Shown here piece by piece: positions 11,231 to 58,934 of a stretch of 64,000 nt of DNA (positions are counted from its first letter, which is position 1; each line of letters begins with the position of its first letter). The notes below the pieces were generated by a model. The model saw only the letters and a list, made by a program, of their open reading frames with translations, did not search any database and was not told where the DNA came from. The stretch is from Bacteroidales bacterium (GTDB lineage Bacteria > Bacteroidota > Bacteroidia > Bacteroidales > P3). The position numbers and the translations under genes are program-made. The stretch covers positions 28,419 to 92,418 of the forward strand of contig JAFZFU010000026.1 in assembly GCA_017555745.1 (NCBI GenBank), read 5' to 3'.

Positions 11231-11422
11231 CCTCGCGGCGGATATAAATTCCCTCACGAGGGAAATATAAAATCCTCGCGATGTTGTTGCAACTTCCTCG
11301 CGAGAAAAATCTGACAACATCGAGAGGAATTTTTTATCCCCCCGTGATATATTATCCGTTTATTTATACCCTATCATCAGCGTCGTCACAATAGGGTGTG
11401 AATGAATTGACGGTATACTGTC
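11231..11422 (+). repeat. Phased-palindrome/hairpin element, copy A
   Basis: 10-mers cctcgcggcg, cctcacgagg, cctcgcgatg, cctcgcgaga, catcgagagg and ccccgtgata start at 11231, 11252, 11274, 11296, 11318 and 11340 (period 21-22). They are followed by accctat...atagggtgtgaat (11368..11403) and gacggtatactgtc (11409..11422). Confidence 0.85.
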
Positions 11423-11554
11423 AAAATTAGACAAAGATATACCGCTACTATTGTATGTCGAAAATAAAAAAACTAAACAATAAATACGAAATACAAAAAG
11501 CCGTCAATGAAAAAAAATGTAGACAAAAATATTCCATACTTGCGAAAAAAGATG

Positions 11555-17815: not shown

Positions 17816-17935
17816 AAACCCCTGTGGTTTGCCATTCAAAAGTGCCATACTTTTGACCCGTAACTATGGGAGTTACGACCCCTAAACATGGGAGTTACGG
17901 GTGATAAACCACATAGTTTGTAATAGTAATATTAC
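17816..17935. repeat. Array of five to six unrelated short hairpins on a ~22-bp lattice
   Basis: aaacc/ggttt (centre 17823), caaaagt/acttttg (17846), cgtaact/agttacg (17868), a degenerate repeat of atgggagttacg (17890), aaac/gttt (17912.5), gtaatattac (17930.5). Confidence 0.7.
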
Positions 17936-18112
17936 AGACTATTTATCCAAATACCGACTTTAAGGTGATAACACCCGACAACTATATTGAGTTTGTGAAT
18001 ACTATATTGTAGCAATAGGGGATACTATTTCTTGTTTGTTGCATAAAAAGTACCACCGTTGAACAATGAAAATACTTTTTTGTGGTTTATATATACAGAA
18101 ATATAAATAGTA

Positions 18113-18836: not shown

Positions 18837-20591
18837 ATGAACATTACACAACAAATAGCACGAAACATAGCATTTACTTTACTTACAATACTATATACCC
18901 CGATATTTTCGCAAAACGACAGTTATCCACAAAACTATTTTCGTTCGCCCGTTAATATACCTCTTGCCACTTCAGGTATCTTTGCCGAGATAAGAAGTAA
19001 CCATTTTCATTCGGGGATGGACTTCAGAATAGGAGGGGTGATAGGCGAACCTGTATATGCTGTGGCCGACGGATATGTATCGAGAATTAAAGTCTCGGCA
19101 TACGGCGGCGGAAAAACCTTATACATCACTCACCCCAATGGATATAAAAGTGTGTATATGCACCTCAATAACTTTGTGGGTGCAATAGCCGAATATACCA
19201 AGCAGTGCCACTACAAACAACGTGCTTTTGAGATAGATGTAGAGATAGCCGACAGCATGTTGATGGTTAAGAAAGGCATGCTGATAGCCAATGCCGGCAA
19301 TACGGGCGGCAGTGGTGGTCCGCATCTGCACTTCGAACTGCGACATGCCCACAACGACAAAACCATAAATCCTCTATTGTTTGGAATGCCGTTTGCCGAC
19401 AATATAGCACCGGTTATACACAACATAAGGGTATACCCCGCCGGAGAAGGTTCGACAATAAATGGACAAACAATACCTTTGATGATAAAAGACACACGTA
19501 CCGACAAGAAGACAAAGAAAAAACACACCTTTGTTCACGATACTGTATATGTAAGTGGACGAATATATACAGGCATATATGCCACCGATGCCGCGCCAAA
19601 CTCGACACAAAAAAACGGAGTCTACGAAATAAAACTATATGTAGACGACGAGTTGATATTCCACTATTCGCCCACCGAGTTTATGTTTGAAGAAACACGT
19701 GCAGCCAACTCGATGATAGACTACGAATGGTACAAGAAAAATCGCCAAGCATACATACTGTCGAGAAAACTGCGAGGCAACAAAAGCCAAACATGCCGTG
19801 TGTATAAAAACAACGGCTATATATCCTTTGCCGACAATGGTTGCCACAAAGTGGAATACAGAGTAACAGACTTTTCGGGCAACAGCGCCAAAATGTCGTT
19901 TGTGGTAAAAAACACTTTGGCTACTCCGGTTGCTGTAGCCACTCCTTCGGCAGCGAAATATAATATTCCCATAGCCTACTATTTAAAAAACAGATACAAA
20001 ACCGACGGATATGCTGTATACTTCGATGAAAACACCTTTTACGAAAATGACCTTATGTGCTATCAAAAGCACCCCGCCAAATATCGCTCGATACTTACCG
20101 ATGTGCATACTTTGACATTTAAAAACCACTCGTTGCCACCACATATAACCTATACCGCTAAACTAACGATACCCGACAGCCTGATGGCTTTAAAACAAAA
20201 ACTTGTGCCCGTAACCGTAGCCGGAAAAACGATAGTGGCACAACCATTTACAATAAATGCCGATACCATGGTGGTAAAACTTAGAACGTTTGATGGCCTG
20301 GCAATATCCATCGATACTATAGCACCCAAAGTATCTCCTTCGAACTTTAAAGAAGGGAAAAAGATAACCACAAAAACTTTGAAGGTAAAAATATCCGATA
20401 ACCTTTCGGGGATAACCAAATATGACTGCTACCTAAACGGAGAATGGATATTGGCCGAACACGATGGCAAAACAGCTACACTGACTATAGACACCGTCGG
20501 AGCCACTGCCACAGGCAAAAATATACTGAAAGTAATAGTTACAGACCGTATAGGAAATACCACCGTAAAAGAATGGGTGCTTCTGTTTTAG
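18837..20591 (+). CDS. M23 family metallopeptidase with long C-terminal extension
   Basis: HFHSGMDFRI and GGPHLHFELR zinc-binding motifs of LytM/M23. Signal sequence present. ~380 aa of beta-rich C-terminal extension. Confidence 0.85.
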   Translation: MNITQQIARNIAFTLLTILYTPIFSQNDSYPQNYFRSPVNIPLATSGIFAEIRSNHFHSGMDFRIGGVIGEPVYAVADGYVSRIKVSAYGGGKTLYITHPNGYKSVYMHLNNFVGAIAEYTKQCHYKQRAFEIDVEIADSMLMVKKGMLIANAGNTGGSGGPHLHFELRHAHNDKTINPLLFGMPFADNIAPVIHNIRVYPAGEGSTINGQTIPLMIKDTRTDKKTKKKHTFVHDTVYVSGRIYTGIYATDAAPNSTQKNGVYEIKLYVDDELIFHYSPTEFMFEETRAANSMIDYEWYKKNRQAYILSRKLRGNKSQTCRVYKNNGYISFADNGCHKVEYRVTDFSGNSAKMSFVVKNTLATPVAVATPSAAKYNIPIAYYLKNRYKTDGYAVYFDENTFYENDLMCYQKHPAKYRSILTDVHTLTFKNHSLPPHITYTAKLTIPDSLMALKQKLVPVTVAGKTIVAQPFTINADTMVVKLRTFDGLAISIDTIAPKVSPSNFKEGKKITTKTLKVKISDNLSGITKYDCYLNGEWILAEHDGKTATLTIDTVGATATGKNILKVIVTDRIGNTTVKEWVLLF

Positions 20592-20634
20592 GCAATTCTT
20601 AAAAATTGCTTCGCAAGTGATTTGCGGAATTTTC
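20591..20634 (+). repeat. Head-family repeat copy (GGCAATTCTTAAAAATTGCTTCGCAAGTGATTTGCGGAATTTTC)
   Basis: Near-identical to the reverse complement of 31341..31384. A weaker second copy lies at 20798..20826 (ggtttaaaaattgtatagcaaatgatttgcgga). Confidence 0.8.
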
Positions 20635-20689
20635 GGGAGAAATCCAAAACCATTACATTCTTCCGAAAAAGGATGGTAATGCTTTTCAA

Positions 20690-20776
20690 AAAAGGGGTAG
20701 GGGCTTGCCATAAAAAGGGATAGGGGGTTTATATCAAAAGGGGTAGGGTTAAATTTTAAAACCCCTTCCCCTTTTG
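20690..20776. repeat. 23-bp-spaced AAAAGGGGTAGGG direct repeats (x3) plus an inverted fourth copy
   Basis: The TA of GGGGTAGGG falls at 20698, 20721 and 20744. aaaaccccttccccttttg (20757..20776) is the near-complement of unit 3, so the two can form a long hairpin. Confidence 0.8.
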
Positions 20777-20853
20777 CAGAATATATTCCATGGTTTAAAA
20801 ATTGTATAGCAAATGATTTGCGGAGCTTACCTTTAAAACATCTAACAAAAAAA

Positions 20854-20899: not shown

Positions 20900-23053
20900 T
20901 TAGTTACGCACCACTTTGCGTATTGCCACACCTCTATCTGTAGTTACACGTAATGTATAGTAGCCTTTGCTTAGTTTGGATAAATCTATAATATAACTAT
21001 CGTTGTATACTGCCACCATTCTACCCATGGCATCCATTACTTCTACTTTGCGGATATCTGTGCTGTTGAAAGTAATAGTTCCGCTTGTTGGGTTGGGATA
21101 TAAACGAAGTTCATCTAATTCGCTAGCAGTTTCTATTCCTATTTCTTCCTCGAAAGTAGCAATATATGTAGCCTCTGCTTCTACTACAATGGTACGAGGA
21201 TTCTCGGTATTGCCATCGTTCCAACTTACAAAGCGATAGCCTTGCTTAGGAGTAGCCGTTATTGTAACCTCTGAGCCAAAGAGATATTCTCCGCTACCCG
21301 ATACAGTACCCATGTTTTCGTTTGCCGAAATAACGGTTATAGTTATATTGTCGCAAATTTCTTCTATACTGATAAAATACTCACCCCATTTGGCAGTAGG
21401 AGCACTATAGTATGCAGCACTTCCACAAGGCACTTTTAATATAGCTGTTGCCGAGAAAATATTAGAGCCAAGTGTAGGAGGAAAACTTGCCAACGATTTA
21501 ACATTATGCAAATTATTGCAACCATAAAAAGCTTTGTTTCCTATAGAAGACATATTTTCACCAATAACAGCATAAGCCAAATTATTGCAGTTTTCGAACG
21601 TAGATTCCTCGATAGTTGTAATACCATTTGGTATAATAATTGTATCTAAACCGCTACAACCATAAAATGCACTATTCCCAATAGATGTAACTCCGTTAGG
21701 AATGATTATCTCCGATATAGCAGTTTTATTGTATACAAAATATGCCGGAATGCGTTGCACACTATCTCCTATAGTTATTGTAGAAATAGGACTATCACTA
21801 AAAGGATAATTTGAATAACTAAAATCACTGCAATTTACTGCATTAAAGTTTAGAGTAGTTAAATTATTGCAACTAGAGAATAGAGAAGAATTAATAGAAG
21901 TAATACTCCGTCCAATTGTCAGAGTTGTTAAAGAAGTTTTACTATATACAAAATTTCCCGGTATACGTTGTACACTATCACCTATGTTTATTGTAGAAAT
22001 ATGACAACCAGAAAATGGATTTAAACTACCAGAAATAAAATTACTGCAATTTACTGCATTAAAGTTTAAGGTAGTTAAACTTGTACAGTTATAAAAAGCA
22101 GACACTCCAACAGACGTAACCGAATTAGGAATAGTAACCGATGTTAGACCGCTACAACCGCTAAAAGCATCACTTCCAATAGAAGTAACCGAATTACCGA
22201 TGGTTACTGAGGTTAACCCGCTACAATAAGCAAAAGCAAAATTTCCAATAGTAGTAACCGAATTGGGGATTGTTACCGAGGTTAGACTGCTACAACCCTC
22301 AAAAGTAGAAATTCCAATAGTAGTAACCGAATTAATAATGGTTACATTTGAACTGCTACCTATATATGCTGTTAATGTAGTTTTTGTACTATCTCTATAT
22401 ATAAAATCGCCATCAATATACCCATTTACATTAAATGCTCCCCATGGGCTACCTGATGCAGTACCGCTATAAACGATATTTTTTACTAAGTAAAAAGCAT
22501 AACTTCCAATATAAGTAACCGAATTAGGAATAGTTACCGAGGTTAACCCGCTGCAATTATAGAAAGCAGAATATCCAATAGACGTAACCGAATTAGGAAT
22601 AGTAACCGATGTTAAACCGCTACAACCGCTAAAAGCAGAATTTCCAATAGAAGTAACCGAATTAGGGATGGAAACCGAAGTTAAACCTGTACAATCTCTA
22701 AAAGCACAACTTCCAATAGAAGTAACCGAATTAGGGATGGTTACCGAAGTTAAACCGCTACAACTTTCAAAAGATCCATAAGGATAACTATCGGGACCAA
22801 TACCTCTTAATTCTGTCACGTTGTAAGTTGTGCCATTGTAAGAAACTGTAGCGGGTATAACTACATTGCCGGAAACATAGTTGTTATATGTGTTGCCTTC
22901 TCCCGGTCTTACAACTCCTACATTTGTAGTTCCGCTAATTATTTCATAATACAGAGTGTGTCCACTTGGGCTTGTTGCACTAAAGTCGTAGGCCCATACA
23001 GTCGATAGCATTGTACTAACTGTAATAATTAAAGATAATAATAATCTCTTCAT
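20900..23053 (-). CDS. BspA-family leucine-rich-repeat surface protein with T9SS type A C-terminal domain
   Basis: Many 23-aa units (LTSVTIPNSVTSIGNSAFSGCSG). C-terminus LRLYPNPTSGTITF...GYYTLRVTTDRGVAIRKVVRN. Start set at MKRLLLSLIITVSTMLSTVWA (23053), a signal peptide; the 57-aa extension to 23224 in the track has no signal-peptide character. Confidence 0.85.
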   Translation of the reverse strand: MKRLLLSLIITVSTMLSTVWAYDFSATSPSGHTLYYEIISGTTNVGVVRPGEGNTYNNYVSGNVVIPATVSYNGTTYNVTELRGIGPDSYPYGSFESCSGLTSVTIPNSVTSIGSCAFRDCTGLTSVSIPNSVTSIGNSAFSGCSGLTSVTIPNSVTSIGYSAFYNCSGLTSVTIPNSVTYIGSYAFYLVKNIVYSGTASGSPWGAFNVNGYIDGDFIYRDSTKTTLTAYIGSSSNVTIINSVTTIGISTFEGCSSLTSVTIPNSVTTIGNFAFAYCSGLTSVTIGNSVTSIGSDAFSGCSGLTSVTIPNSVTSVGVSAFYNCTSLTTLNFNAVNCSNFISGSLNPFSGCHISTINIGDSVQRIPGNFVYSKTSLTTLTIGRSITSINSSLFSSCNNLTTLNFNAVNCSDFSYSNYPFSDSPISTITIGDSVQRIPAYFVYNKTAISEIIIPNGVTSIGNSAFYGCSGLDTIIIPNGITTIEESTFENCNNLAYAVIGENMSSIGNKAFYGCNNLHNVKSLASFPPTLGSNIFSATAILKVPCGSAAYYSAPTAKWGEYFISIEEICDNITITVISANENMGTVSGSGEYLFGSEVTITATPKQGYRFVSWNDGNTENPRTIVVEAEATYIATFEEEIGIETASELDELRLYPNPTSGTITFNSTDIRKVEVMDAMGRMVAVYNDSYIIDLSKLSKGYYTLRVTTDRGVAIRKVVRN

Positions 23054-23363
23054 ATTTATAATTTTATTAGTGAGCTTTCGGCAGATATTCCGTAAATAAG
23101 GGGTATAAAGAAAGGCGTGAAATCTTTCGGTAGCCTTCTTGTTCAAGCATGGGATGTCTGGTAATATCCTTGTAACAAATAATAAGTACACGAAAATCCA
23201 CGCCTTATTAGGCGTGAATTCCATGCATTCTTATTCTTGTTACCTTTTTAGTTTACCAGACTATTCATGCGATAGAATAAGAGCATCAAGCTCTATGTTT
23301 ACACTATGTTTATTATATTTATTTCTACGTTGTTACATATTATTTACTGTTTGTTTGAAAGTG

Positions 23364-23371: not shown

Positions 23372-23502
23372 CACATATTTTCGGAATAAAACATAGTTTT
23401 CCAAAAACTTTTTATTTTTAGGTAGTTTCTAAAAAGTTCTCACTCGTAGTTTAAAATTCATTTTAGCCCTATAGAAAAGTTGTTATACCCCGTTGTATTT
23501 CT

Positions 23503-23586
23503 ATATTCCAAAGTTTGGAACGAATATTTCAAAGTTTGAAATATATATTCCAAAGTATGAAATAAATATTCCAAACTTTGGAATAT
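23503..23586. repeat. 4 x 21-bp tandem array of palindrome ATATTCCAAAGTTTGGAA
   Basis: Units start at 23503, 23524, 23545 and 23566. The first and last have the full TTCCAAAGTTTGGAA / TTCCAAACTTTGGAA palindrome; the middle two are degenerate. Confidence 0.9.
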
Positions 23587-23719
23587 ACTTTTGGTATGGG
23601 AAAAAAGAAGTTCTGGTATAGATGTCGGAAACTTTTTTGTAGGGATTAAAAAAATTATAACCATAGATTAGAAACTGAAGAATATAACTGCCACAGAAAA
23701 GAAACAGCGGTAAACAAAC

Positions 23720-31142: not shown

Positions 31143-31189
31143 CAAAATTATTTTGATATCACAACTTTATAGTCAATTTTATTATTAAA

Positions 31190-31384
31190 GGCAACTTCTA
31201 AAAATTCCACATTTTGGATAATTAGAAGAATATTCTTTAAAACTTTTGCCTGCTTTGTGTTTTTTCTTGAAATATTTCTATTTCTTTTTCAATCGCATAG
31301 CCCGCTATGCTCAATCAAAAGAAAGTAAAAATTTTTTCAAGAAAATTCCGCAAATCAGTTGCAAAGCAATTTTTAGAAATTGCC
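31190..31384. repeat. IR-flanked ~195-bp palindromic (MITE-like) element, head motif GGCAAYTTCTAAAAATT
   Basis: The left end ggcaacttctaaaaatt matches the reverse complement of the right end aatttttagaaattgcc. The inner arms ttttcttgaaatatttctatttctttttcaatcgcatagc / gctatgctcaatcaaaagaaagtaaaaattttttcaagaaaa pair around a centre near 31302. Confidence 0.8.
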
Positions 31385-31491
31385 TAAATTGTATATCGGG
31401 TAAAGCGATAATGAAAAAATAAAGGATAATTTCGGATACGATTTAGGGCGATACTTTGATGTTTTTTTATGAGATGTTTACTGATTTTATT

Positions 31492-31700
31492 CATCGGCCG
31501 GTTTGTGGGAAATCTGCATCACGATGTTGTGAGATTTTCCTCACGAGGATTTTTGTACTTCATCGCGATGCTGTTTTATCGTCATCGGGAGGGAATTTTT
31601 ATGCCATATATGGGCATAAAATTGATGGTATACCATCGTGCTCGTGAAACCCTATTGTGAAGTAAATGACAATAGGGTGTGAATAAAACGATACTCTATC
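31492..31700 (+). repeat. Phased-palindrome/hairpin element, copy B (best preserved)
   Basis: Palindrome centres at 31521.5, 31543.5, 31565.5, 31587.5, 31608.5 and 31630.5 (catcacgatg, cctcacgagg, catcgcgatg, catcgggagg, ccatatatgg, gatggtataccatc). A perfect 10-bp stem accctattgt/acaatagggt lies at 31649..31678. Confidence 0.9.
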
Positions 31701-32009
31701 ATCATTTATCTGCCAAAGCGCAAGAACAAAAAAAAGATTTTCGTTTTACTAAAAACGGGTCTAAAATCTACGTTTCAAAGGAAGTTTTTCTATTTAATTA
31801 TACGAAACGCAAAAATTTTAGAAGTAGCCTTAAAATAGTATTTAGTTTTGTATATTTTATTTTATATTTATTTGAATTTCAATGTTAATACTCCGAATAG
31901 ACAATCCATTATTTCAACCAAATAAAAATACCATACAATAAATAAAAGGTTGATGCGTTAGATAATTTTCGAAAGACAACGCATGCCTATGGGTAACGAA
32001 AAGAACAAA

Positions 32010-32175
32010 GGCAATTTGTAAAAATTACTTTGGCTATGATTTGCGGAATCTTATTGAAAAAGAAATAGAAATAGAACAACTCCAATATAGTAGCAACTAA
32101 TCAGGCTGTTTACAAGACTTAATAGTTTAAAATTGACGCTATTTGTAGGAGAGTCGGATTTCTTAGAAATTGCCA
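32010..32175. repeat. Second IR-flanked element of the same head family (~166 bp)
   Basis: The left end is ggcaatttgtaaaaattactttggctatgatttgcggaatc. The right end atttcttagaaattgcc is an inverted head. The internal attgaaaaagaaatagaaata matches the arm of the 31190 element. Confidence 0.65.
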
Positions 32176-39944: not shown

Positions 39945-40454
39945 TTAGCCGGCAAAGCCTCCACCGCCGGAAGTATCTCCGCCTTGGTTGCCTTGTTCGT
40001 TGTTTGTAACGTCGTCTTCCTCAATGTCGCCATCTTCAGCGTCGCCTTTGGCCGATGGCAAATAAGTCCACTCAATATCATCGGCAATAAGAGTGTTGAT
40101 TTTCTTGCCTTTCTGTGCACCAACAGCCGATTTCATTGCGGGGCGAAACTGCACTTTGATGTTCGTAACCTGGTCCATCGATACCTCTTCGGGGGTGTCG
40201 ACACCGGTTTTCTTACACTCGAAATTCAAGAAAAACGAGCCTATCCCATCTAATTTCACCGAATGACCTTCGGCCAAATAGCGAGTCATCACTGTGGGGA
40301 TTGCCGTTAGCACCGCCATTACATCGGTCTGACTTACGGTGCTTTCCTTTTCGATGTCTTTTGCCAAACGTTTGGCATCATAGGTGCTTACTGTTTTAGG
40401 TCTGGGTATCCACTTACCTGTAAGCTTCACGAATTGTTTGCTAAAGAATGCCAT
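39945..40454 (-). CDS. Bacteroidales-type HU-related DNA-binding protein with acidic/Gly-rich C-terminal tail
   Basis: The N-terminal ~120 aa has the HU/IHF-like pattern of the HU_rel family (LAKDIEKESTVSQTDVMAVLTAI...LAEGHSVKLDGIGSF). The tail is DAEDGDIEEDDVTNNEQGNQGGDTSGGGGFAG. Confidence 0.7.
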   Translation of the reverse strand: MAFFSKQFVKLTGKWIPRPKTVSTYDAKRLAKDIEKESTVSQTDVMAVLTAIPTVMTRYLAEGHSVKLDGIGSFFLNFECKKTGVDTPEEVSMDQVTNIKVQFRPAMKSAVGAQKGKKINTLIADDIEWTYLPSAKGDAEDGDIEEDDVTNNEQGNQGGDTSGGGGFAG

Positions 40455-40530: not shown

Positions 40531-40680
40531 GACCTTAAAAGGAGGATTTTTTGACCCTCCAAGGTTCTTTTGTGAACCTTCCAAGGTTCAGACGTGAACC
40601 TTTAAAGATTCAGACGTGAACCTTCCAAGGTTCGCAAAAGGGGTCTCCAACACTCTCCGAGCACCTCTCCAAAGGTTTTT
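40531..40680. repeat. 22-bp tandem array with palindromic core GAACCTTCCAAGGTTC
   Basis: Three well-conserved units gtgaaccttccaaggttcagac start at 40572, 40594 and 40616. Degenerate in-phase units flank them on both sides (40531, 40551; 40638 onward). Confidence 0.85.
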
Positions 40681-49612: not shown

Positions 49613-49688
49613 TCTCGCGATGATGATAAAATTTCATCACGAGGAAAATGTTGCAATTACGTGATGTTGACAAATTTTCATCGTGATG
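49613..49688 (+). repeat. Phased-palindrome element, copy C (array only)
   Basis: tctcgcgatg, catcacgagg, ttacgtgatg and catcgtgatg are centred at 49617.5, 49639.5, 49661.5 and 49683.5, an exact 22-bp spacing. Confidence 0.8.
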
Positions 49689-49714
49689 TTTTTTATGGGT
49701 TTCTTATATATCTA

Positions 49715-52411: not shown

Positions 52412-52545
52412 CCTCGGGATGGTTTATTGTCGTTTCTCGAAGAACGACAAAATAATTTGGTAAGAAATTTCCGATTATATATATGTTTAAATTCACGGTA
52501 TATCATCAATTCCATAACACCCTATTGTGAAACGAATGACGATAT
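52412..52545 (+). repeat. Phased-palindrome/hairpin element, copy D (degenerate)
   Basis: cctcgggatg (52412); the long hairpin ttgtcgtt-tctcgaag-aacgacaa (52427..52450) lies 22 bp further on; then aattt/aaatt, atatatat, cacggtatatcatc, and accctattgtga (52519..52530) whose right arm is deleted. Confidence 0.65.
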
Positions 52546-52605
52546 ACTGTGAAATGAGTGATACCCGGCTGTTGTTTTTGTAATAGTTAATGAGCAATGC
52601 TTCAG

Positions 52606-56832: not shown

Positions 56833-56982
56833 AATAAATCTTTTTCTACAAAACATTATTGTATGATGTTTGGTTTTAGAAGAACAAAGAAATATTAGAC
56901 GACTAAATATAATTTTTTCATCTAAGATACGTTATTAAATGCGACAATATTAAACATAAACATTACATAAATAGATACGACA

Positions 56983-57660
56983 ATGAATATTTGGATAATT
57001 TTTGGTGTTTTTGCCTTAGTAAGTTATCTTATCAGTAATAGATTGGAATCTAAGTTTAAAAAGTATTCCAAAATACCCATGAATTATGGTATGACCGGTA
57101 GAGAAGTGGCCGAAAAGATGCTTCGCGACAATGATATTTACGATGTAAAAGTGGTGTCGACACCGGGTACTCTTACTGATCATTACAATCCTGCTACCAA
57201 AACTATCAATCTCAGCAACGGAGTGTATAATAGTAATAGTGTTGCAGCTGCTGCGGTGGCAGCACACGAAACAGGACACGCAGTGCAACATGCCACTGCT
57301 TACTCGTGGTTACAAATGCGTTCGTCGTTGGTGCCGGTAGTAAGTTTTGCTTCACGTTGGGTGCAATGGGTATTGTTGGCTGGCATACTGCTGATAGGTA
57401 TCTTCCCAAAGTTACTATTGGTAGGTATATGTCTTTTCGCCGTTACTACACTATTTAGTATTATTACTCTTCCCGTGGAAGTAAATGCTTCAAAACGAGC
57501 ATTGGTATGGCTTAATACTCATAATGTTACTTCACCGAATACTCACGGATATGCCGAAGATGCTCTGCGTTGGGCTGCATACACTTATTTTATAGCGGCA
57601 CTTACTTCGTTGGCCACATTGGTGTATTACATAATGATATACTTAGGCAGAAGAGATTGA
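56983..57660 (+). CDS. Membrane zinc metallopeptidase (Zn_peptidase_2 / YpfJ-unrelated neutral peptidase family)
   Basis: HETGHAVQH zinc motif. N-terminal TM helix plus C-terminal TM helices. ~225 aa, typical of the family. Confidence 0.8.
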   Translation: MNIWIIFGVFALVSYLISNRLESKFKKYSKIPMNYGMTGREVAEKMLRDNDIYDVKVVSTPGTLTDHYNPATKTINLSNGVYNSNSVAAAAVAAHETGHAVQHATAYSWLQMRSSLVPVVSFASRWVQWVLLAGILLIGIFPKLLLVGICLFAVTTLFSIITLPVEVNASKRALVWLNTHNVTSPNTHGYAEDALRWAAYTYFIAALTSLATLVYYIMIYLGRRD

Positions 57661-57739
57661 TTTTTGTTTCAAATTAAGCTTCGGGCAATAGCCCTTTTAA
57701 ATAAAGAACTTGACACGAAGAAATGAAAGTTTTTTCGAT

Positions 57740-57901
57740 ACCCTATTGTCGTTTGTTTCACAATAGGGTCTTACGAGCGTGACGGTATACCATGAATTTT
57801 GCCACTGTATACGACCTTAATTTTTCCTCACGATGAAGATAAAACAACGTCGTGATGTAGCACAAAAAACATCGCGAGGAAAATTCCACAACATCGCGAG
57901 G
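57740..57901 (-). repeat. Phased-palindrome/hairpin element, copy E (inverted orientation)
   Basis: Hairpin accctattgt/acaatagggt at 57740..57769. Palindrome centres at 57786.5, 57808.5, 57830.5, 57852.5, 57874.5 and 57896.5, exactly 22.0 bp apart. The last two units are identical (catcgcgaggaaaatt). Confidence 0.9.
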
Positions 57902-58095
57902 AAAATTTTGACTACAAGCAAGCTTAGAGTCAATACTTAATATGTGTCTCCGTTACAGATAGAGACGGCAAATCATTAAGAAGGGTTATACAATACCTGC
58001 TTGAAAATAAGGTAAACGGATTAAAACCAACCATCAATATAGCATTCAATCTTATTTTTTATAACATAGGGTGCTGTAGTTTGGAAAAATATGCG

Positions 58096-58103
58096 TATTT
58101 TTG
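58096..58103 (+). promoter_or_regulatory. -7 box for gldF-gldG
   Basis: TATTTTTG about 95 nt upstream of the ATG at 58197. Confidence 0.45.
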
Positions 58104-58196
58104 CAATATGATTTTTTAGTTTGGCTATACAATTATATTATTGTTATAGCGTTTATTATGTATTTAATAGGATAAAAGAATAAAACAAATATAGAT

Positions 58197-58934
58197 ATGT
58201 ATACATTGTACAAAAAGGAATTGGGTAGTTTTTTTTCGTCGCTAATGGGTTACCTTACCATTATAGTGTTCCTCCTCTTGAATGGTTTGATGCTATGGGT
58301 ATTTAATTCAGATTTTAATATTATGGACTATGGTTATGCCGGTTTAGATGGTCTTTTCCTTATCGGACCTTTTTTGTTTTTGTTTCTCATACCGGCTATT
58401 ACCATGCGTATGTTTTCCGAAGAAAAAAAGAACGGCACCATCGAATTGCTATTTACAAAACCTCTTAGCGAATATCAGATAATATTTGCCAAGTTGTTGG
58501 CAGGTATTACATTGGTGTTTATATCAATATTACCCACTATTGTGTATTATATAAGCGTGTACATGCTTGGTGATCCTATTGGTAATGTGGATACCGGTAG
58601 TGTGATTGGCTCATATATAGGCCTATTGTTTTTGGGTAGTGCTTTTGTGGCTATAGGTCTTTTTGCATCTGTGCTCACAAACAATCAGATAGTGGCATTC
58701 ATTATAGCCATACTATTATCTGTATTTTGTTATCTTGGATTTGAAACATTGTATAATATGGATATTTTTGGTTCGTTGAGTCTTTTTGTACGCTCGCTAG
58801 GCATACGTTACCATTACGAATCGATAAGTCGTGGAGTTATCGATACCCGCGATGTGTTGTATTTCCTAAGTGTGATAGCATTGTTTGTCATGCTTACACG
58901 TGTAGTGTTACTATCAAGAAAATGGCAAAAATAA
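58197..58934 (+). CDS. gldF: Gliding-motility-associated ABC transporter permease GldF
   Basis: ABC-2 type six-TM permease (FSEEKKNGTIELLFTKPLS) located immediately upstream of a GldG homolog. Confidence 0.75.
   Translation: MYTLYKKELGSFFSSLMGYLTIIVFLLLNGLMLWVFNSDFNIMDYGYAGLDGLFLIGPFLFLFLIPAITMRMFSEEKKNGTIELLFTKPLSEYQIIFAKLLAGITLVFISILPTIVYYISVYMLGDPIGNVDTGSVIGSYIGLLFLGSAFVAIGLFASVLTNNQIVAFIIAILLSVFCYLGFETLYNMDIFGSLSLFVRSLGIRYHYESISRGVIDTRDVLYFLSVIALFVMLTRVVLLSRKWQK

What the first reader, a model, noticed from the sequence alone, without database searches (positions are those of the whole stretch)
31492..31700. Best-preserved copy of a five-copy intergenic element: 22-bp-phased palindrome array plus a conserved 10-bp-stem hairpin
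Six short palindromes sit on a 21-22 bp lattice: catcacgatg, cctcacgagg, catcgcgatg, catcgggagg, ccatatatgg, gatggtataccatc. Their centres are 31521.5, 31543.5, 31565.5, 31587.5, 31608.5 and 31630.5. A perfect hairpin ACCCTATTGT-(10 nt)-ACAATAGGGT follows at 31649..31678, then GTGAAT. Recognisable copies occur at 11231, 49613, 52412 and 57740, so there are five in 64 kb and all are intergenic. The 3' module (ggtatacc box plus hairpin) is conserved in sequence. In the 5' array, what is conserved is palindromy and phase. A 22-bp spacing is about two helical turns, which puts every site on one DNA face. That is the geometry of iteron or operator arrays for a dimeric binding protein, or of a nucleoprotein scaffold. 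I know of no described Bacteroidales element with this architecture.
Basis: seen in the sequence. Interest (0 to 1): 0.7.

Follow-up and report, generated by a model that had tools for sequence, protein, structure and literature searches.

The report
Phased-palindrome intergenic repeat element family
This is a real, apparently undescribed family of roughly 200-300 bp non-coding repeat elements scattered between genes of an uncultured ruminant-gut Bacteroidales bacterium and its relatives, built from short palindromes spaced exactly 22 bp apart plus a conserved hairpin module; its palindrome array usually faces a neighbouring gene's promoter, and no reader protein is known.

Summary
CMTCNNGAKG palindromes sit on an exact 22-bp lattice at five intergenic window sites: 13 motif pairs at 22/44/66 bp against 0 in 300 shuffles.

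The 10-bp-stem hairpin and the GGTATACC box recur in about 40 copies from related Bacteroidales MAGs and ruminant-gut metagenomes. Family architecture is an optional promoter-bearing leader, 1-6 units of 22 bp (CATCRCGAKG-nAaTTTtAtCTa), a CCATATATGG-type palindrome, a 16-bp box TGACRGTATAYYRTCA, 11 nt, ACCCTATTGT-N10-AYRATAGGGT, and often a mirrored second box. Lattice phase relative to the box holds within ±2 bp across independent copies.

- Flanking genes are unrelated housekeeping genes.
- The array side faces the 5' end of a divergent gene at about 21 of 25 independent sites.
- Half-sites vary independently, with no base-pair covariation.
- Metatranscriptomes show no abundant RNA from the module.
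- Rfam, phage and plasmid searches found nothing.

Best reading: a dispersed mosaic repeat of the BrickBuilt/BOX/BIME kind that works on DNA as a one-face docking lattice upstream of promoters. The binding protein and any regulatory effect are inferred, not shown. It lacks BrickBuilt's IS5-type terminal repeats. Many other 22-bp arrays with different palindromic cores occur in these genomes.

The parts
31517..31592 (+). Site I (the finding): array of four 22-bp units with cores CATCACGATG, CCTCACGAGG, CATCGCGATG and CATCGGGAGG
31604..31613 (+). Site I: CCATATATGG palindrome on the lattice node 22 bp before the box. The family consensus is GAGGcyrTATATtGgC.
   Evidence: I2, I7
31623..31638 (+). 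Site I: 16-bp box TGATGGTATACCATCG (family consensus TGACRGTATAYYRTCA)
31649..31678 (+). Site I: perfect 10-bp-stem hairpin or inverted repeat, ACCCTATTGT-gaagtaaatg-ACAATAGGGT
31613..31714 (+). Site I: 102-bp imperfect palindrome (46-nt arms, 72% complementary) centred on the hairpin. It comprises box, 11 nt, arm, loop, arm, 11 nt and a degenerate second box (GATACTCTATC at 31690-31700).
   Evidence: I1
31428..31500 (+). Site I: probable decayed leader module (tttcggatacgatttagggcgatactttgatg...) with its -7 box destroyed. The boundaries are tentative.
   Evidence: read directly from the sequence and compared with the leaders
11231..11423 (-). Site E copy. Five cores at 11231, 11252, 11274, 11296 and 11318; a degenerate box at 11346; hairpin 11368-11397 (ACCCTATCAT/ACAATAGGGT); intact box TGACGGTATACTGTCA at 11408-11423. 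Orientation is set by the intact box, and the array lies on the far side of the hairpin.
49613..49712 (+). Array-only copy. Cores at 49613, 49635, 49657 and 49679, plus a degenerate TATATA node near 49705. The copy is truncated at the dtd stop codon and faces the 5' end of dnaE.
52412..52552 (+). Site H copy. Core at 52412, TATATA node at 52476, box at 52497, left arm ACCCTATTGT at 52519. A second box (GATATACT at 52541) replaces the right arm (type-2 core).
57740..57901 (-). Site G copy, inverted. Hairpin 57740-57769, box at 57784, GTATAC node at 57807, cores at 57826, 57848 (CGTCGTGATG), 57870 and 57892.

Best explanation
The finding is one copy of a dispersed, non-coding, modular intergenic repeat family of an uncultured ruminant-gut Bacteroidales lineage. 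It is a mosaic element of the same general kind as BrickBuilt, pneumococcal BOX and E. coli BIMEs.

A full copy has these modules, all held in one 22-bp register (about two helical turns):
1. A leader of about 75 nt carrying an outward-facing Bacteroidetes-type promoter.
2. A minisatellite of 22-bp units, each with a dyad-symmetric core T.CMTCRCGAKG.A.
3. A TATAT-centred palindrome.
4. A 16-bp palindromic box.
5. A 30-bp inverted repeat.

Proposed mechanism (inferred): the element acts as double-stranded DNA. The in-phase dyad sites form a one-face docking lattice for one or more dimeric DNA-binding proteins, architectural or regulatory. The lattice sits upstream of, and acts on or insulates, the promoter that the array side faces.

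Shown here: the family, its architecture, the lattice, its intergenic dispersal, the orientation bias, the independent variation of half-sites, and the lack of an abundant RNA product.

Inferred: protein binding, and any effect on transcription.

The dispersed copies also appear to act as substrates for genome rearrangement.
For: **Family and lattice**
- Exact 22-bp phasing at five window sites is far beyond chance.
- The same modules in the same register occur in about 40 copies from MAGs RGIG9913, RGIG7670 and RGIG5581 and from two metagenome assemblies.
- Core spacing is 22 bp in 65 unique adjacent pairs, against 6 pairs at 21 or 23 bp.

**Indels come in lattice quanta**
- Arrays differ by whole units.
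- Type-2 cores duplicate a block of about 43-44 bp.
- One strain carries a 22-nt arm duplication after 57737.

**DNA level rather than RNA level**
- Core positions 2 and 9 vary independently.
- The box shows non-Watson-Crick combinations of both strand types, 20 against 29.
- Hairpins found through synteny, not through my search pattern, show both G.U-type and A.C-type mismatches.
- Metatranscriptome contigs give zero coverage at sites I and E. At site G coverage is only a continuation of the contig of the upstream gene.
- Rfam has no match.
- A period of 22 is not a multiple of 3, so the array is not coding.

**Link to promoters**
- The array side faces the 5' end of a divergently transcribed gene in 29 of 35 copies. 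After I collapsed orthologous loci using the flank clusters, that is about 21 of 25 independent sites (one-sided binomial about 5e-4).
- It holds in 6 of 7 further copies judged from called genes.
- A homologous leader carrying TAnnTTTG on the bottom strand precedes the array at 5 or more sites that have different downstream genes.

**Constraint**
- In orthologous copies the box-linker-hairpin is nearly invariant. The array turns over but keeps its consensus and its lattice.

**Not a regulon or a replicon**
- Flanking genes are functionally unrelated.
- There are no phage or plasmid matches.
Against: - No binding protein is identified, and no expression or reporter data exist.
- The exact 22-bp spacing could simply record duplication by slippage rather than selection for helical phase.
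- The lattice nodes have at least three or four unlike sequences, so several proteins or a loosely specific one would be needed.
- Cores change at least as fast as spacers between close orthologs (L042 against L043: about 5 changes in 40 core positions and 1 in 36 spacer positions on my by-eye alignment; the gapless count gives 8/51 and 11/60).
- One strain tolerates a 12-bp deletion that destroys a core.
- Some copies are decayed or truncated (49613, 52412, L061).
- A minority of copies sit where the array side faces no 5' end (for example L061:2508).
- The orientation bias could come from insertion preference, or from purifying selection against harmful orientations.
Confidence: 0.45

Rival explanations
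1. The element is a selfish or neutral non-autonomous mobile element, MITE-like and carrying an internal minisatellite. The 22-bp lattice is a by-product of unit duplication by slipped-strand mispairing. The dyad units may be subterminal binding sites for a transposase supplied in trans. Any promoter association reflects where insertions are tolerated.
For: - Copy density is high: 5-6 copies per roughly 70 kb.
- Copies are diverged, decayed and truncated.
- Presence or absence differs at the same gene junction: Zn-peptidase|GT87 is 545 bp with the element in L067 and 115 bp without it in L071.
- At the orthologous comEA|SIR2 site the element has the opposite orientation in a relative whose SIR2 is 82% identical.
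- Synteny breakpoints coincide with copies.
- The same genomes hold a classical MITE bounded by terminal inverted repeats.
- The closest analogue, BrickBuilt, is classified as a MITE (PMC4596501).
Against: - I found no terminal inverted repeats. The only flanking inverted repeat is a 9-mer that does not recur in other copies.
- No target-site duplication could be defined, because the flanks are too diverged.
- No transposase lies next to any copy.
- No two copies in a genome are near-identical, so there is no sign of recent transposition. Copies are stable within the species.
- The lattice phase is kept between unlike modules, which slippage alone does not explain.
- The orientation bias is strong.
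Confidence: 0.3
2. The element works at the RNA level. The box plus hairpin module would be a small RNA or a UTR structure (a stabiliser, a terminator or a processing site), with the array as its upstream control region.
For: - The box-linker-hairpin, including the loop, is nearly invariant among orthologous copies.
- The loop has an asymmetric consensus, GAAnAGATTG.
- The region folds well, with z-scores of -4.2 and -5.6.
- At site G the element lies inside a metatranscriptome contig that continues from the upstream gene.
Against: - Both strands fold equally well, as expected for palindromes.
- The apparent 29:2 excess of G.U-type pairs was produced by my own search pattern, which fixed the left arm. 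Copies found through synteny show A.C-type mismatches as well.
- The box shows no strand bias.
- No U-tract follows the hairpin on either strand.
- Four metatranscriptomes give zero coverage at sites I and E, while a neighbouring MITE reaches a depth of about 1000.
- Rfam has no match.
Confidence: 0.1
3. The element is a site-specific recombination or inversion substrate (an inverton or att-like site), or a set of replication or partition iterons of an integrated element.
For: - 22 bp is a classical iteron length (my own knowledge, for example R6K and pPS10).
- The orthologous site shows the element inverted.
- The core is a 102-bp palindrome.
Against: - No inversion joints appear across the element in any of the 8 runs laid on it. 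The only 'opposite strands' joints lie in the MITE or point to another copy.
- No recombinase, rep or par gene is adjacent.
- Dozens of chromosomal copies lie next to housekeeping genes.
- Nothing matches in plasmid or phage collections.
Confidence: 0.05

Closest known systems
BrickBuilt MITE/minisatellite of Porphyromonas gingivalis (Klein et al. 2015, PMC4596501)
   Same: - It belongs to Bacteroidales and is strictly intergenic.
- It is modular: leader, tandem repeats, tail.
- The repeat unit is 23 nt, against 22 here, and has dyad symmetry.
- The unit number varies, and many copies are partial.
- About 19 copies lie next to unrelated housekeeping genes.
- A promoter in the leader faces outward.
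- It has no Rfam match.
   Different: - BrickBuilt ends in IS5-like terminal inverted repeats (GAGACCTTTGCA). These are absent from the ends of this element.
- BrickBuilt arrays reach about 23 units; these have 1-6.
- BrickBuilt has no reported equivalent of the box plus 10-bp hairpin core.
- It has no reported fixed register between unlike modules.
- It is restricted to P. gingivalis and P. gulae.
- Sequence homology could not be tested, because the paper gives logos only.
Pneumococcal BOX elements (boxA-boxB(n)-boxC); from my own knowledge, not tested here
   Same: It is a dispersed intergenic modular repeat with a variable number of internal tandem units between conserved end modules that can pair. 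It is often near promoters or terminators, and no transposase is known.
   Different: The boxB unit is 45 nt and is not a short dyad on a helical lattice. The phylum differs (Firmicutes), and there is no sequence relation.
E. coli BIMEs / REP (PU) mosaic elements; from my own knowledge
   Same: These are high-copy extragenic mosaics of palindromic units and other short motifs in fixed arrangements. They are bound by architectural proteins (IHF, gyrase) and serve as substrates for rearrangement.
   Different: - REPs carry a GTAG tag and are linked to RAYT transposases.
- They mostly lie between convergent or co-directional genes, within transcripts.
- They have no 22-bp lattice.
- The hairpin here has no GTAG tag.
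Plasmid iteron arrays (for example the 22-bp iterons of R6K and pPS10) and phased operator arrays; from my own knowledge
   Same: Tandem units of about 22 bp place the binding sites on one face of the helix.
   Different: - Iterons are direct repeats, not dyads.
- They lie next to a rep gene, an AT-rich region and DnaA boxes.
- They occur once per replicon.
- The copies here are dispersed through the chromosome and have no linked gene.

Membership tests
BrickBuilt (P. gingivalis) | IS5-like terminal inverted repeats GAGACCTTTGCA / TGCAAAGGTCTC at the leader and tail ends | tested here: not met
   The window has 3 matches at 2 mismatches, against 3.96 expected by chance. None lies at an element end.
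BrickBuilt (P. gingivalis) | [quoted passage not shown] | tested here: met
   The units are 22 bp with a dyad core, flanked by a leader and a box/hairpin 'tail', and are all intergenic. This shows an architectural match only.
BrickBuilt (P. gingivalis) | Sequence homology of the repeat unit, leader and tail | not testable with these tools
   The paper gives logos only, and no P. gingivalis sequence was on hand.
MITE (general) | Terminal inverted repeats at both ends | tested here: not met
   No inverted repeat is shared by the element ends. The 9-mer pair TTTTATTCA/TGAATAAAA at site I (I8) does not recur in other copies.
MITE (general) | Target-site duplication and clean filled/empty sites | tested here: inconclusive
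   A filled junction (L067) and an empty one (L071) exist, but their flanks are too diverged to place the boundaries.
MITE (general) | Small, non-coding, multicopy | tested here: met
   The element is about 190-300 bp. A period of 22 breaks any reading frame. There are 5 copies in 64 kb and dozens in relatives.
REP/BIME | Imperfect palindrome of 20-40 nt tagged by GTAG/CTAC, with an associated RAYT (Y1 transposase) | tested here: not met
   The hairpin arms are ACCCTATTGT/ACAATAGGGT and carry no GTAG tag. I did not search for a RAYT.
Plasmid/phage iteron origin | Direct repeats next to a rep gene, one locus per replicon, of plasmid or phage origin | tested here: not met
   The units are dyad-symmetric. 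There are at least 5 chromosomal loci next to housekeeping genes. No plasmid or phage matches were found.
Single-regulon operator | Sites upstream of functionally related genes | tested here: not met
   The neighbouring genes include pth, comEA-like, SIR2, dnaE, hydF, ABC-2, recA, panC, PorV, CutC and lysine aminomutase.
Described structured RNA (Rfam 15) | A match at or above a family's gathering score | tested here: not met
   There are 0 matches in the whole window at the gathering threshold. The permissive search gave only chance-level hits, none on the element.
CRISPR array | Repeats of 24-48 nt alternating with unique spacers of similar length, with cas genes nearby | tested here: not met
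   The cores are 10 bp. The 12-nt 'spacers' follow a consensus. I did not scan for cas genes.

The most novel reading that the evidence does not exclude
The finding may be the most abundant member of a broader, lineage-wide class. In these Bacteroidales, intergenic tandem arrays overwhelmingly have a 22-bp period: 36 of 108 arrays in 479 kb, against 0 of 37 in 170 kb of unrelated bacteria. Many carry quite different dyad cores (AACCTTccAAGGTT, TTCCAAAgTTTGGAA, CCCAAAgggTTTGGG, AAAAACGATcaATCGTTTTT, CCAAAGtCTTTGG). BrickBuilt's 22-23-nt dyad repeats could be the same phenomenon in Porphyromonas.

The novel reading is that this is a Bacteroidales-specific cis-regulatory or chromatin architecture. 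Phased dyad arrays would be read by a family of dimeric DNA-binding proteins that assemble one-face nucleoprotein filaments upstream of the order's unusual sigma-AB promoters, and these arrays would be spread around the genome on promoter-bearing cassettes.
Probability: 0.2. Interest if true: 0.8.

Novelty: new variant of a known kind. Interest (0 to 1): 0.5.

Why it matters
- **Scale.** If the density seen here holds genome-wide (about one copy per 10-13 kb), the family would supply roughly 200 or more copies. That would be a noticeable share of the intergenic DNA of an abundant, uncultured group of livestock-gut Bacteroidales.
- **Regulation.** A repeat that carries or abuts promoters, and keeps a strict two-turn register between unlike palindromes, is a testable candidate for a cis-regulatory or nucleoid-organising platform. 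Promoter architecture and global regulators are poorly known in this phylum.
- **Generalising BrickBuilt.** It would turn BrickBuilt from a species-specific curiosity into one example of an order-wide design.
- **Practical consequences.** Such repeats break MAG assemblies and mark synteny breakpoints. Gene callers also mistake them for small ORFs: a 51-aa 'gene' was called over the array in L061.

Tried and rejected
1. **Strand-specific RNA pairing.** An apparent 29:2 excess of G.U-type over A.C-type pairs in the hairpin looked like evidence for an RNA. I rejected it because my search pattern had fixed the left arm. Copies found through synteny carry A.C-type mismatches as well.
2. **Small-RNA gene.** Rejected as the main model. 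Sites I and E have no metatranscriptome coverage, Rfam has no match, and no terminator U-tract is present.
3. **The 'RNA' runs X25 and X26.** Their depth is flat across genes and spacers, so they are probably DNA or too shallow. They were uninformative.
4. **A sigma-70 or Bacteroidetes promoter inside the box/hairpin module.** Reading the sequence by eye, I found no convincing -33/-7 pair.
5. **Leader motif as a general promoter feature.** The first ~40 nt match the clade's common promoter consensus and hit many promoters without arrays. The exact 12-mer TTATTTTGATAT is not enriched in the window, with 29 matches against 26.8 expected. Only the second half of the leader is specific to the element.
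6. **BrickBuilt membership.** The terminal inverted repeat is absent.
7. **Phage or plasmid origin.** No BLAST hits and no box+hairpin pattern in viral contigs. One viral contig has an unrelated perfect 22-bp repeat.
8. **Inverton.** No inversion joints across the element.
9. **Exact element boundaries from a filled and an empty site.** The alignment was too diverged.
10. **Literature.** Word and sequence searches found nothing beyond BrickBuilt.
Full report
**1. Checking the observation**

The sequence at 31492-31700 is as described.
- Four 10-mers of the form CMTCNNGAKG start at 31517, 31539, 31561 and 31583.
- CCATATATGG is at 31604-31613 and GATGGTATACCATC at 31624-31637.
- A perfect hairpin, ACCCTATTGT-N10-ACAATAGGGT, is at 31649-31678.

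A loose core pattern hits 18 times in the window. All 13 hit pairs that lie within 120 bp are exactly 22, 44 or 66 bp apart. None of 300 dinucleotide-preserving shuffles produced a single such pair. The hairpin pattern has three matches at up to 3 mismatches, against none expected.

- 11231 has five cores, a hairpin with two arm mismatches, and its intact box beyond the hairpin.
- 49613 is an array only, cut off at the dtd stop codon.
- 52412 has one good core, a box and the left arm, with a second box in place of the right arm.
- 57740 is a complete copy on the minus strand.

All are intergenic. A contig from a related strain shows a further, very similar inverted copy about 6.5 kb right of the 57740 copy, just beyond the window end.

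**2. Source organism and spread of the family**

The window comes from an uncultured Bacteroidales bacterium of ruminant and animal guts.
- Near-identical DNA occurs in bovine, pig and other gut metagenome runs.
- An exact-pattern scan of one genome per species found the hairpin, with the neighbouring box and array, in MAGs RGIG9913 (yak rectum), RGIG7670 (buffalo rectum) and RGIG5581 (sheep colon). The other hits were isolated chance palindromes in unrelated phyla.
- A box-plus-left-arm pattern found 31 metagenome loci, 28 of them genuine copies.
- An nhmmer profile of the core module recovered these and a few diverged copies.
- Nothing similar is in the phage or plasmid collections, and the box+hairpin pattern is absent from IMG/VR.
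- Rfam has no match at the gathering score. The permissive search gave only chance-level hits, none on the element.

**3. Anatomy**

Aligned copies give a common plan. In what I call the canonical orientation it reads as follows.
- One to six 22-bp units, with consensus CATCRCGAKG nAaTTTtAtCTa from 79 distinct units. The dyad extends to T.CMTCRCGAKG.A.
- A TATAT-centred palindrome, GAGGcyrTATATtGgC.
- A 16-bp box, TGACRGTATAYYRTCA.
- An 11-nt linker.
- The inverted repeat ACCCTATTGT, a loop with consensus GAAnAGATTG, then AYRATAGGGT.
- A tail, GTGTAAAATTTAA.
- Often a mirrored 11-nt linker and a second box. The core then becomes an imperfect palindrome of about 100 bp. At site I this is 31613-31714, with 46-nt arms that are 72% complementary.

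The register is the striking feature.
- Core centres lie 42-46, 64-68, 86-90 and 108-112 bp from the box centre in independent copies.
- Adjacent cores are 22 bp apart in 65 distinct pairs, 21 bp in 4, 23 bp in 2 and 44 bp in 14.
- The two hairpin arms and the second box continue the lattice at +23, +20 and +23 bp.

Structural variants also come in lattice quanta.
- Arrays differ by whole units.
- 'Type-2' copies (52412, L036, L053, L056) repeat a box-linker-arm-loop block of about 43-44 bp.
- One strain carries a 22-nt duplication of arm plus loop after 57737.
- One strain has a 12-bp deletion that removes a core, leaving the flanking cores 32 bp apart.

**4. DNA or RNA?**

The palindromes make both strands fold equally well, so folding does not discriminate.

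In the cores, the symmetric positions 2 (A/C) and 9 (T/G) vary independently. The counts are A-T 20, A-G 29, C-T 16 and C-G 15, with Fisher p=0.37. This is a dyad consensus with independently degenerate half-sites, not base-pair covariation. The box shows mismatches of both strand types, 20 G.U-type and 29 A.C-type.

For the main hairpin I first saw 29 G.U-type against 2 A.C-type pairs. My search pattern had fixed the left arm, which biases this count. Copies found through gene synteny instead carry A.C-type mismatches as well: ACCCTACCAT/ACAGTAGGGT in L068 and ACCCTACTGT/ACAATAGGGT in L070. Two copies (L063, L068) carry C-G where the consensus has T-A at stem position 7. That fits either symmetry maintenance or shared arm alleles.

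Four true metatranscriptomes from a gut study contain this organism or close relatives. At site G, the element lies inside contigs that continue from the Zn-peptidase gene. One ends at 57833 and one spans 56902-58243. At sites I and E coverage is zero while neighbouring genes are covered at low depth, about 4-10. A neighbouring MITE reaches depths of hundreds to about 1000 in the same runs. Contigs carry no strand and only crude depth, so this argues against an abundant small RNA but does not exclude low-level transcription.

**5. Context and orientation**

Flanking genes are unrelated housekeeping genes.
- In the window they are an Omp28/T9SS protein, pth, a comEA-like protein, a SIR2 deacylase, dnaE, dtd, hydF, glycogen synthase/phosphorylase, a Zn-peptidase and an ABC-2 permease.
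- In other loci they include recA, panC, PorV, CutC, lysine aminomutase and a YhcG nuclease.

With simple ORF calls, the gene on the array side points away from the element in 29 of 35 copies, so its 5' end faces the array. I collapsed orthologous loci by hand using the flank clusters. That leaves about 21 of 25 independent sites, with a one-sided binomial of about 5e-4. Six of seven further copies, judged from called genes, agree.

At five or more independent sites with different genes, the array is preceded by a homologous leader of about 75 nt. These sites are L042/43/58, L045 (panC), L028 and L067 (GT87), and a solo leader sits at L042:238. The first half of the leader carries the Bacteroidetes -7 box TAnnTTTG on the bottom strand, correctly placed to drive the adjacent gene. 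That first half resembles the clade's general promoter consensus. Only the second half (…catgttttgtcctaa…) is specific to the element. At site I the leader looks decayed, and a separate MITE has been inserted between it and the comEA-like promoter.

**6. Evolution**

Within the species the copies are stable, with a few SNPs and one 12-bp deletion across eight metagenomes.

Among orthologous copies in related species (group L033/L034/L040/L057), the box-linker-hairpin is nearly invariant, with 0-2 differences in about 60 nt. The arrays are rebuilt unit by unit yet keep their consensus and register.

At the orthologous comEA|SIR2 junction, results differ between relatives.
- A relative with 82% SIR2 identity has the element in the opposite orientation, with an extra arm.
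- Another has an intact array but a decayed box and hairpin.
- A third lacks that gene order altogether.

The Zn-peptidase|GT87 junction is 545 bp with the element in L067 and 115 bp without it in L071. The flanks were too diverged to define ends or a target duplication.

Gene order in these relatives is heavily rearranged, and breakpoints coincide with element sites. In L068 the comEA-like gene, the element and the glycogen-synthase 3' end are joined. That equals the left half of window site I joined to the right half of site H.

**7. A wider class**

Tandem Repeats Finder over 479 kb of these Bacteroidales loci gives 108 arrays, 36 of them with period 22 and 8 with period 21. Over 170 kb of unrelated bacterial loci it gives 37 arrays, none with period 22. 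The Bacteroidales loci were selected for carrying the family, so part of that excess is circular. Even so, at least a dozen arrays have quite different dyad cores.
- In the window: 40532-40633, where TGAACCTT half-sites alternate in orientation about every 11 bp; 23502-23587 (TTCCAAAgTTTGGAA, period 21); and 17855-17899 (GTAACTcccatAGTTAC).
- Elsewhere: CCCAAAgggTTTGGG repeated five times directly after a family copy in L034; AAAAACGATcaATCGTTTTT in L039; CCAAAGtCTTTGG in L056; and a 450-bp patchwork of several 22-bp arrays in L061.

**8. Interpretation**

It is securely shown that this is a dispersed, non-coding, modular repeat family.

I favour action at the DNA level, as an in-phase lattice of dyad sites for dimeric DNA-binding protein(s) positioned upstream of promoters (confidence about 0.45). 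Four lines of evidence support this:
- half-sites vary independently;
- the register is held between unlike modules, and indels come in 22-bp quanta;
- the array side points at gene 5' ends, and some copies carry a promoter-bearing leader;
- no abundant RNA is detectable.

Protein binding and any effect on transcription are inferences.

The main rival (about 0.3) is a selfish or neutral MITE-like element whose lattice only records slippage. It is supported by decay, presence/absence differences and rearrangements. It is weakened by the lack of terminal inverted repeats, target duplications, a transposase or any recent copies. An RNA-level role (about 0.1) and a recombination-site or iteron role (about 0.05) are less likely.

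**9. Comparison with known systems**

The closest described system is BrickBuilt of Porphyromonas gingivalis. It is intergenic and modular (leader, 23-nt dyad-symmetric minisatellite, tail), is often partial, lies next to unrelated genes, and has an outward-facing promoter in the leader. Its defining IS5-like terminal repeat is absent here, and sequence homology could not be tested. I therefore do not file this element as BrickBuilt.

Pneumococcal BOX elements and E. coli BIMEs are functional and architectural analogues. That comparison rests on my own knowledge. Literature searches found no description of this family or of its motifs.

**10. Verdict**

The element is a new variant of a known kind (mosaic intergenic repeats) rather than something categorically new.

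Its unusual points are the strict two-turn register shared by different palindromes, the link to promoters, and its membership of a wider set of 22-bp dyad arrays in this lineage. Interest 0.5.

Noticed in passing
window 31189-31386: A classical MITE-like element of about 198 bp sits between the comEA-like promoter and the finding. Its terminal inverted repeats are about 18 bp (AGGCAACTTCTAAAAATT / AGGCAATTTCTAAAAATT). Metagenome contig depth over it is 300-2000x against about 13x for the flanks. Its centre (about 31270-31336, ...caatcgcatagcccgctatgctcaatcaaaagaaag...) reaches a depth of about 1000 in a true metatranscriptome, so it may encode an abundant RNA. Rfam has no match.
   Followed up: partly
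window 16236, 20590-20642, 20786-20838, 32009-32061: These are solo or partial copies of the same MITE's terminal module (aggcaaYttctaaaaatt...gatttgcggaatttt). There are 22 and 17 further matches in the related loci.
   Followed up: partly
window 40532-40633: A 22-bp-period array unrelated in sequence to the finding. TGAACCTT half-sites alternate in orientation about every 11 bp (AACCTTccAAGGTT and AAGGTTCAgacgTGAACCTT). It lies immediately upstream of the promoter region of the minus-strand gene 39945-40454.
   Followed up: partly
window 23502-23587: A 21-bp-period array with four units and the palindromic core TTCCAAAgTTTGGAA. It lies about 140-225 bp upstream of the leftward promoter of the repeat-rich gene 20900-23224.
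   Followed up: partly
window 17830-18030 and 20681-20748: - 17855-17899: two 22-bp units with the core GTAACTcccatAGTTAC. The module is also seen in the RGIG7670 loci L009 and L027, next to a box-hairpin core. A degenerate hairpin-like sequence sits at 17990-18020.
- 20681-20748: a 23-bp direct array rich in GGGGTAGGG, between convergent genes.
   Followed up: no
window 21500-22820 (inside ORF 20900-23224, minus strand): 69-bp and roughly 213-bp coding repeats occur in a 774-aa protein, probably tandem protein repeats of the leucine-rich-repeat type.
   Followed up: no
L066 1130-1250 (IMGVR_UViG_3300043411_002004, 251-kb viral contig): About six near-perfect tandem copies of a 22-bp unit, GCCTCACGATGAGTTCGGCAAA, lie just downstream of an ORF stop. 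The core resembles the family's CCTCACGATG. The rest does not, so this is probably coincidence.
   Followed up: partly
L061 17650-18100; L034 1750-1859: - L061: a patchwork of about 450 bp made of several different 22-23-bp arrays laid end to end (AAAGTnnnnnACTTT cores, then others).
- L034: five units of CCCAAAgggTTTGGG directly downstream of a family copy.
Arrays of different types cluster together.
   Followed up: partly
L068 3553-9253 compared with window sites I (31.5 kb) and H (52.4 kb): Gene order among relatives is heavily rearranged, and the breakpoints coincide with element copies. L068 joins the comEA-like gene, an element and the glycogen-synthase 3' end. This suggests recombination between dispersed copies.
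   Followed up: partly
window 57737 (strain in run X36); window 31545-31556 (strain in run X12): Two strain-level indels lie inside copies. One is a 22-nt insertion, ATACCCTATTGTCGTTTAATTT, which duplicates arm plus loop. The other is a 12-bp deletion that removes the second core at site I.
   Followed up: yes
L042 238-308: A solo copy of the roughly 75-nt promoter-bearing leader occurs without any array or core. The leader is therefore itself a repeated module and a candidate mobile promoter.
   Followed up: partly
L061 9629-9784; window ORFs 31456-31647 and 31469-31660: Small ORFs of 51-63 aa are called or callable across the arrays. They are almost certainly spurious, since a 22-bp period cannot keep a reading frame.
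   Followed up: yes
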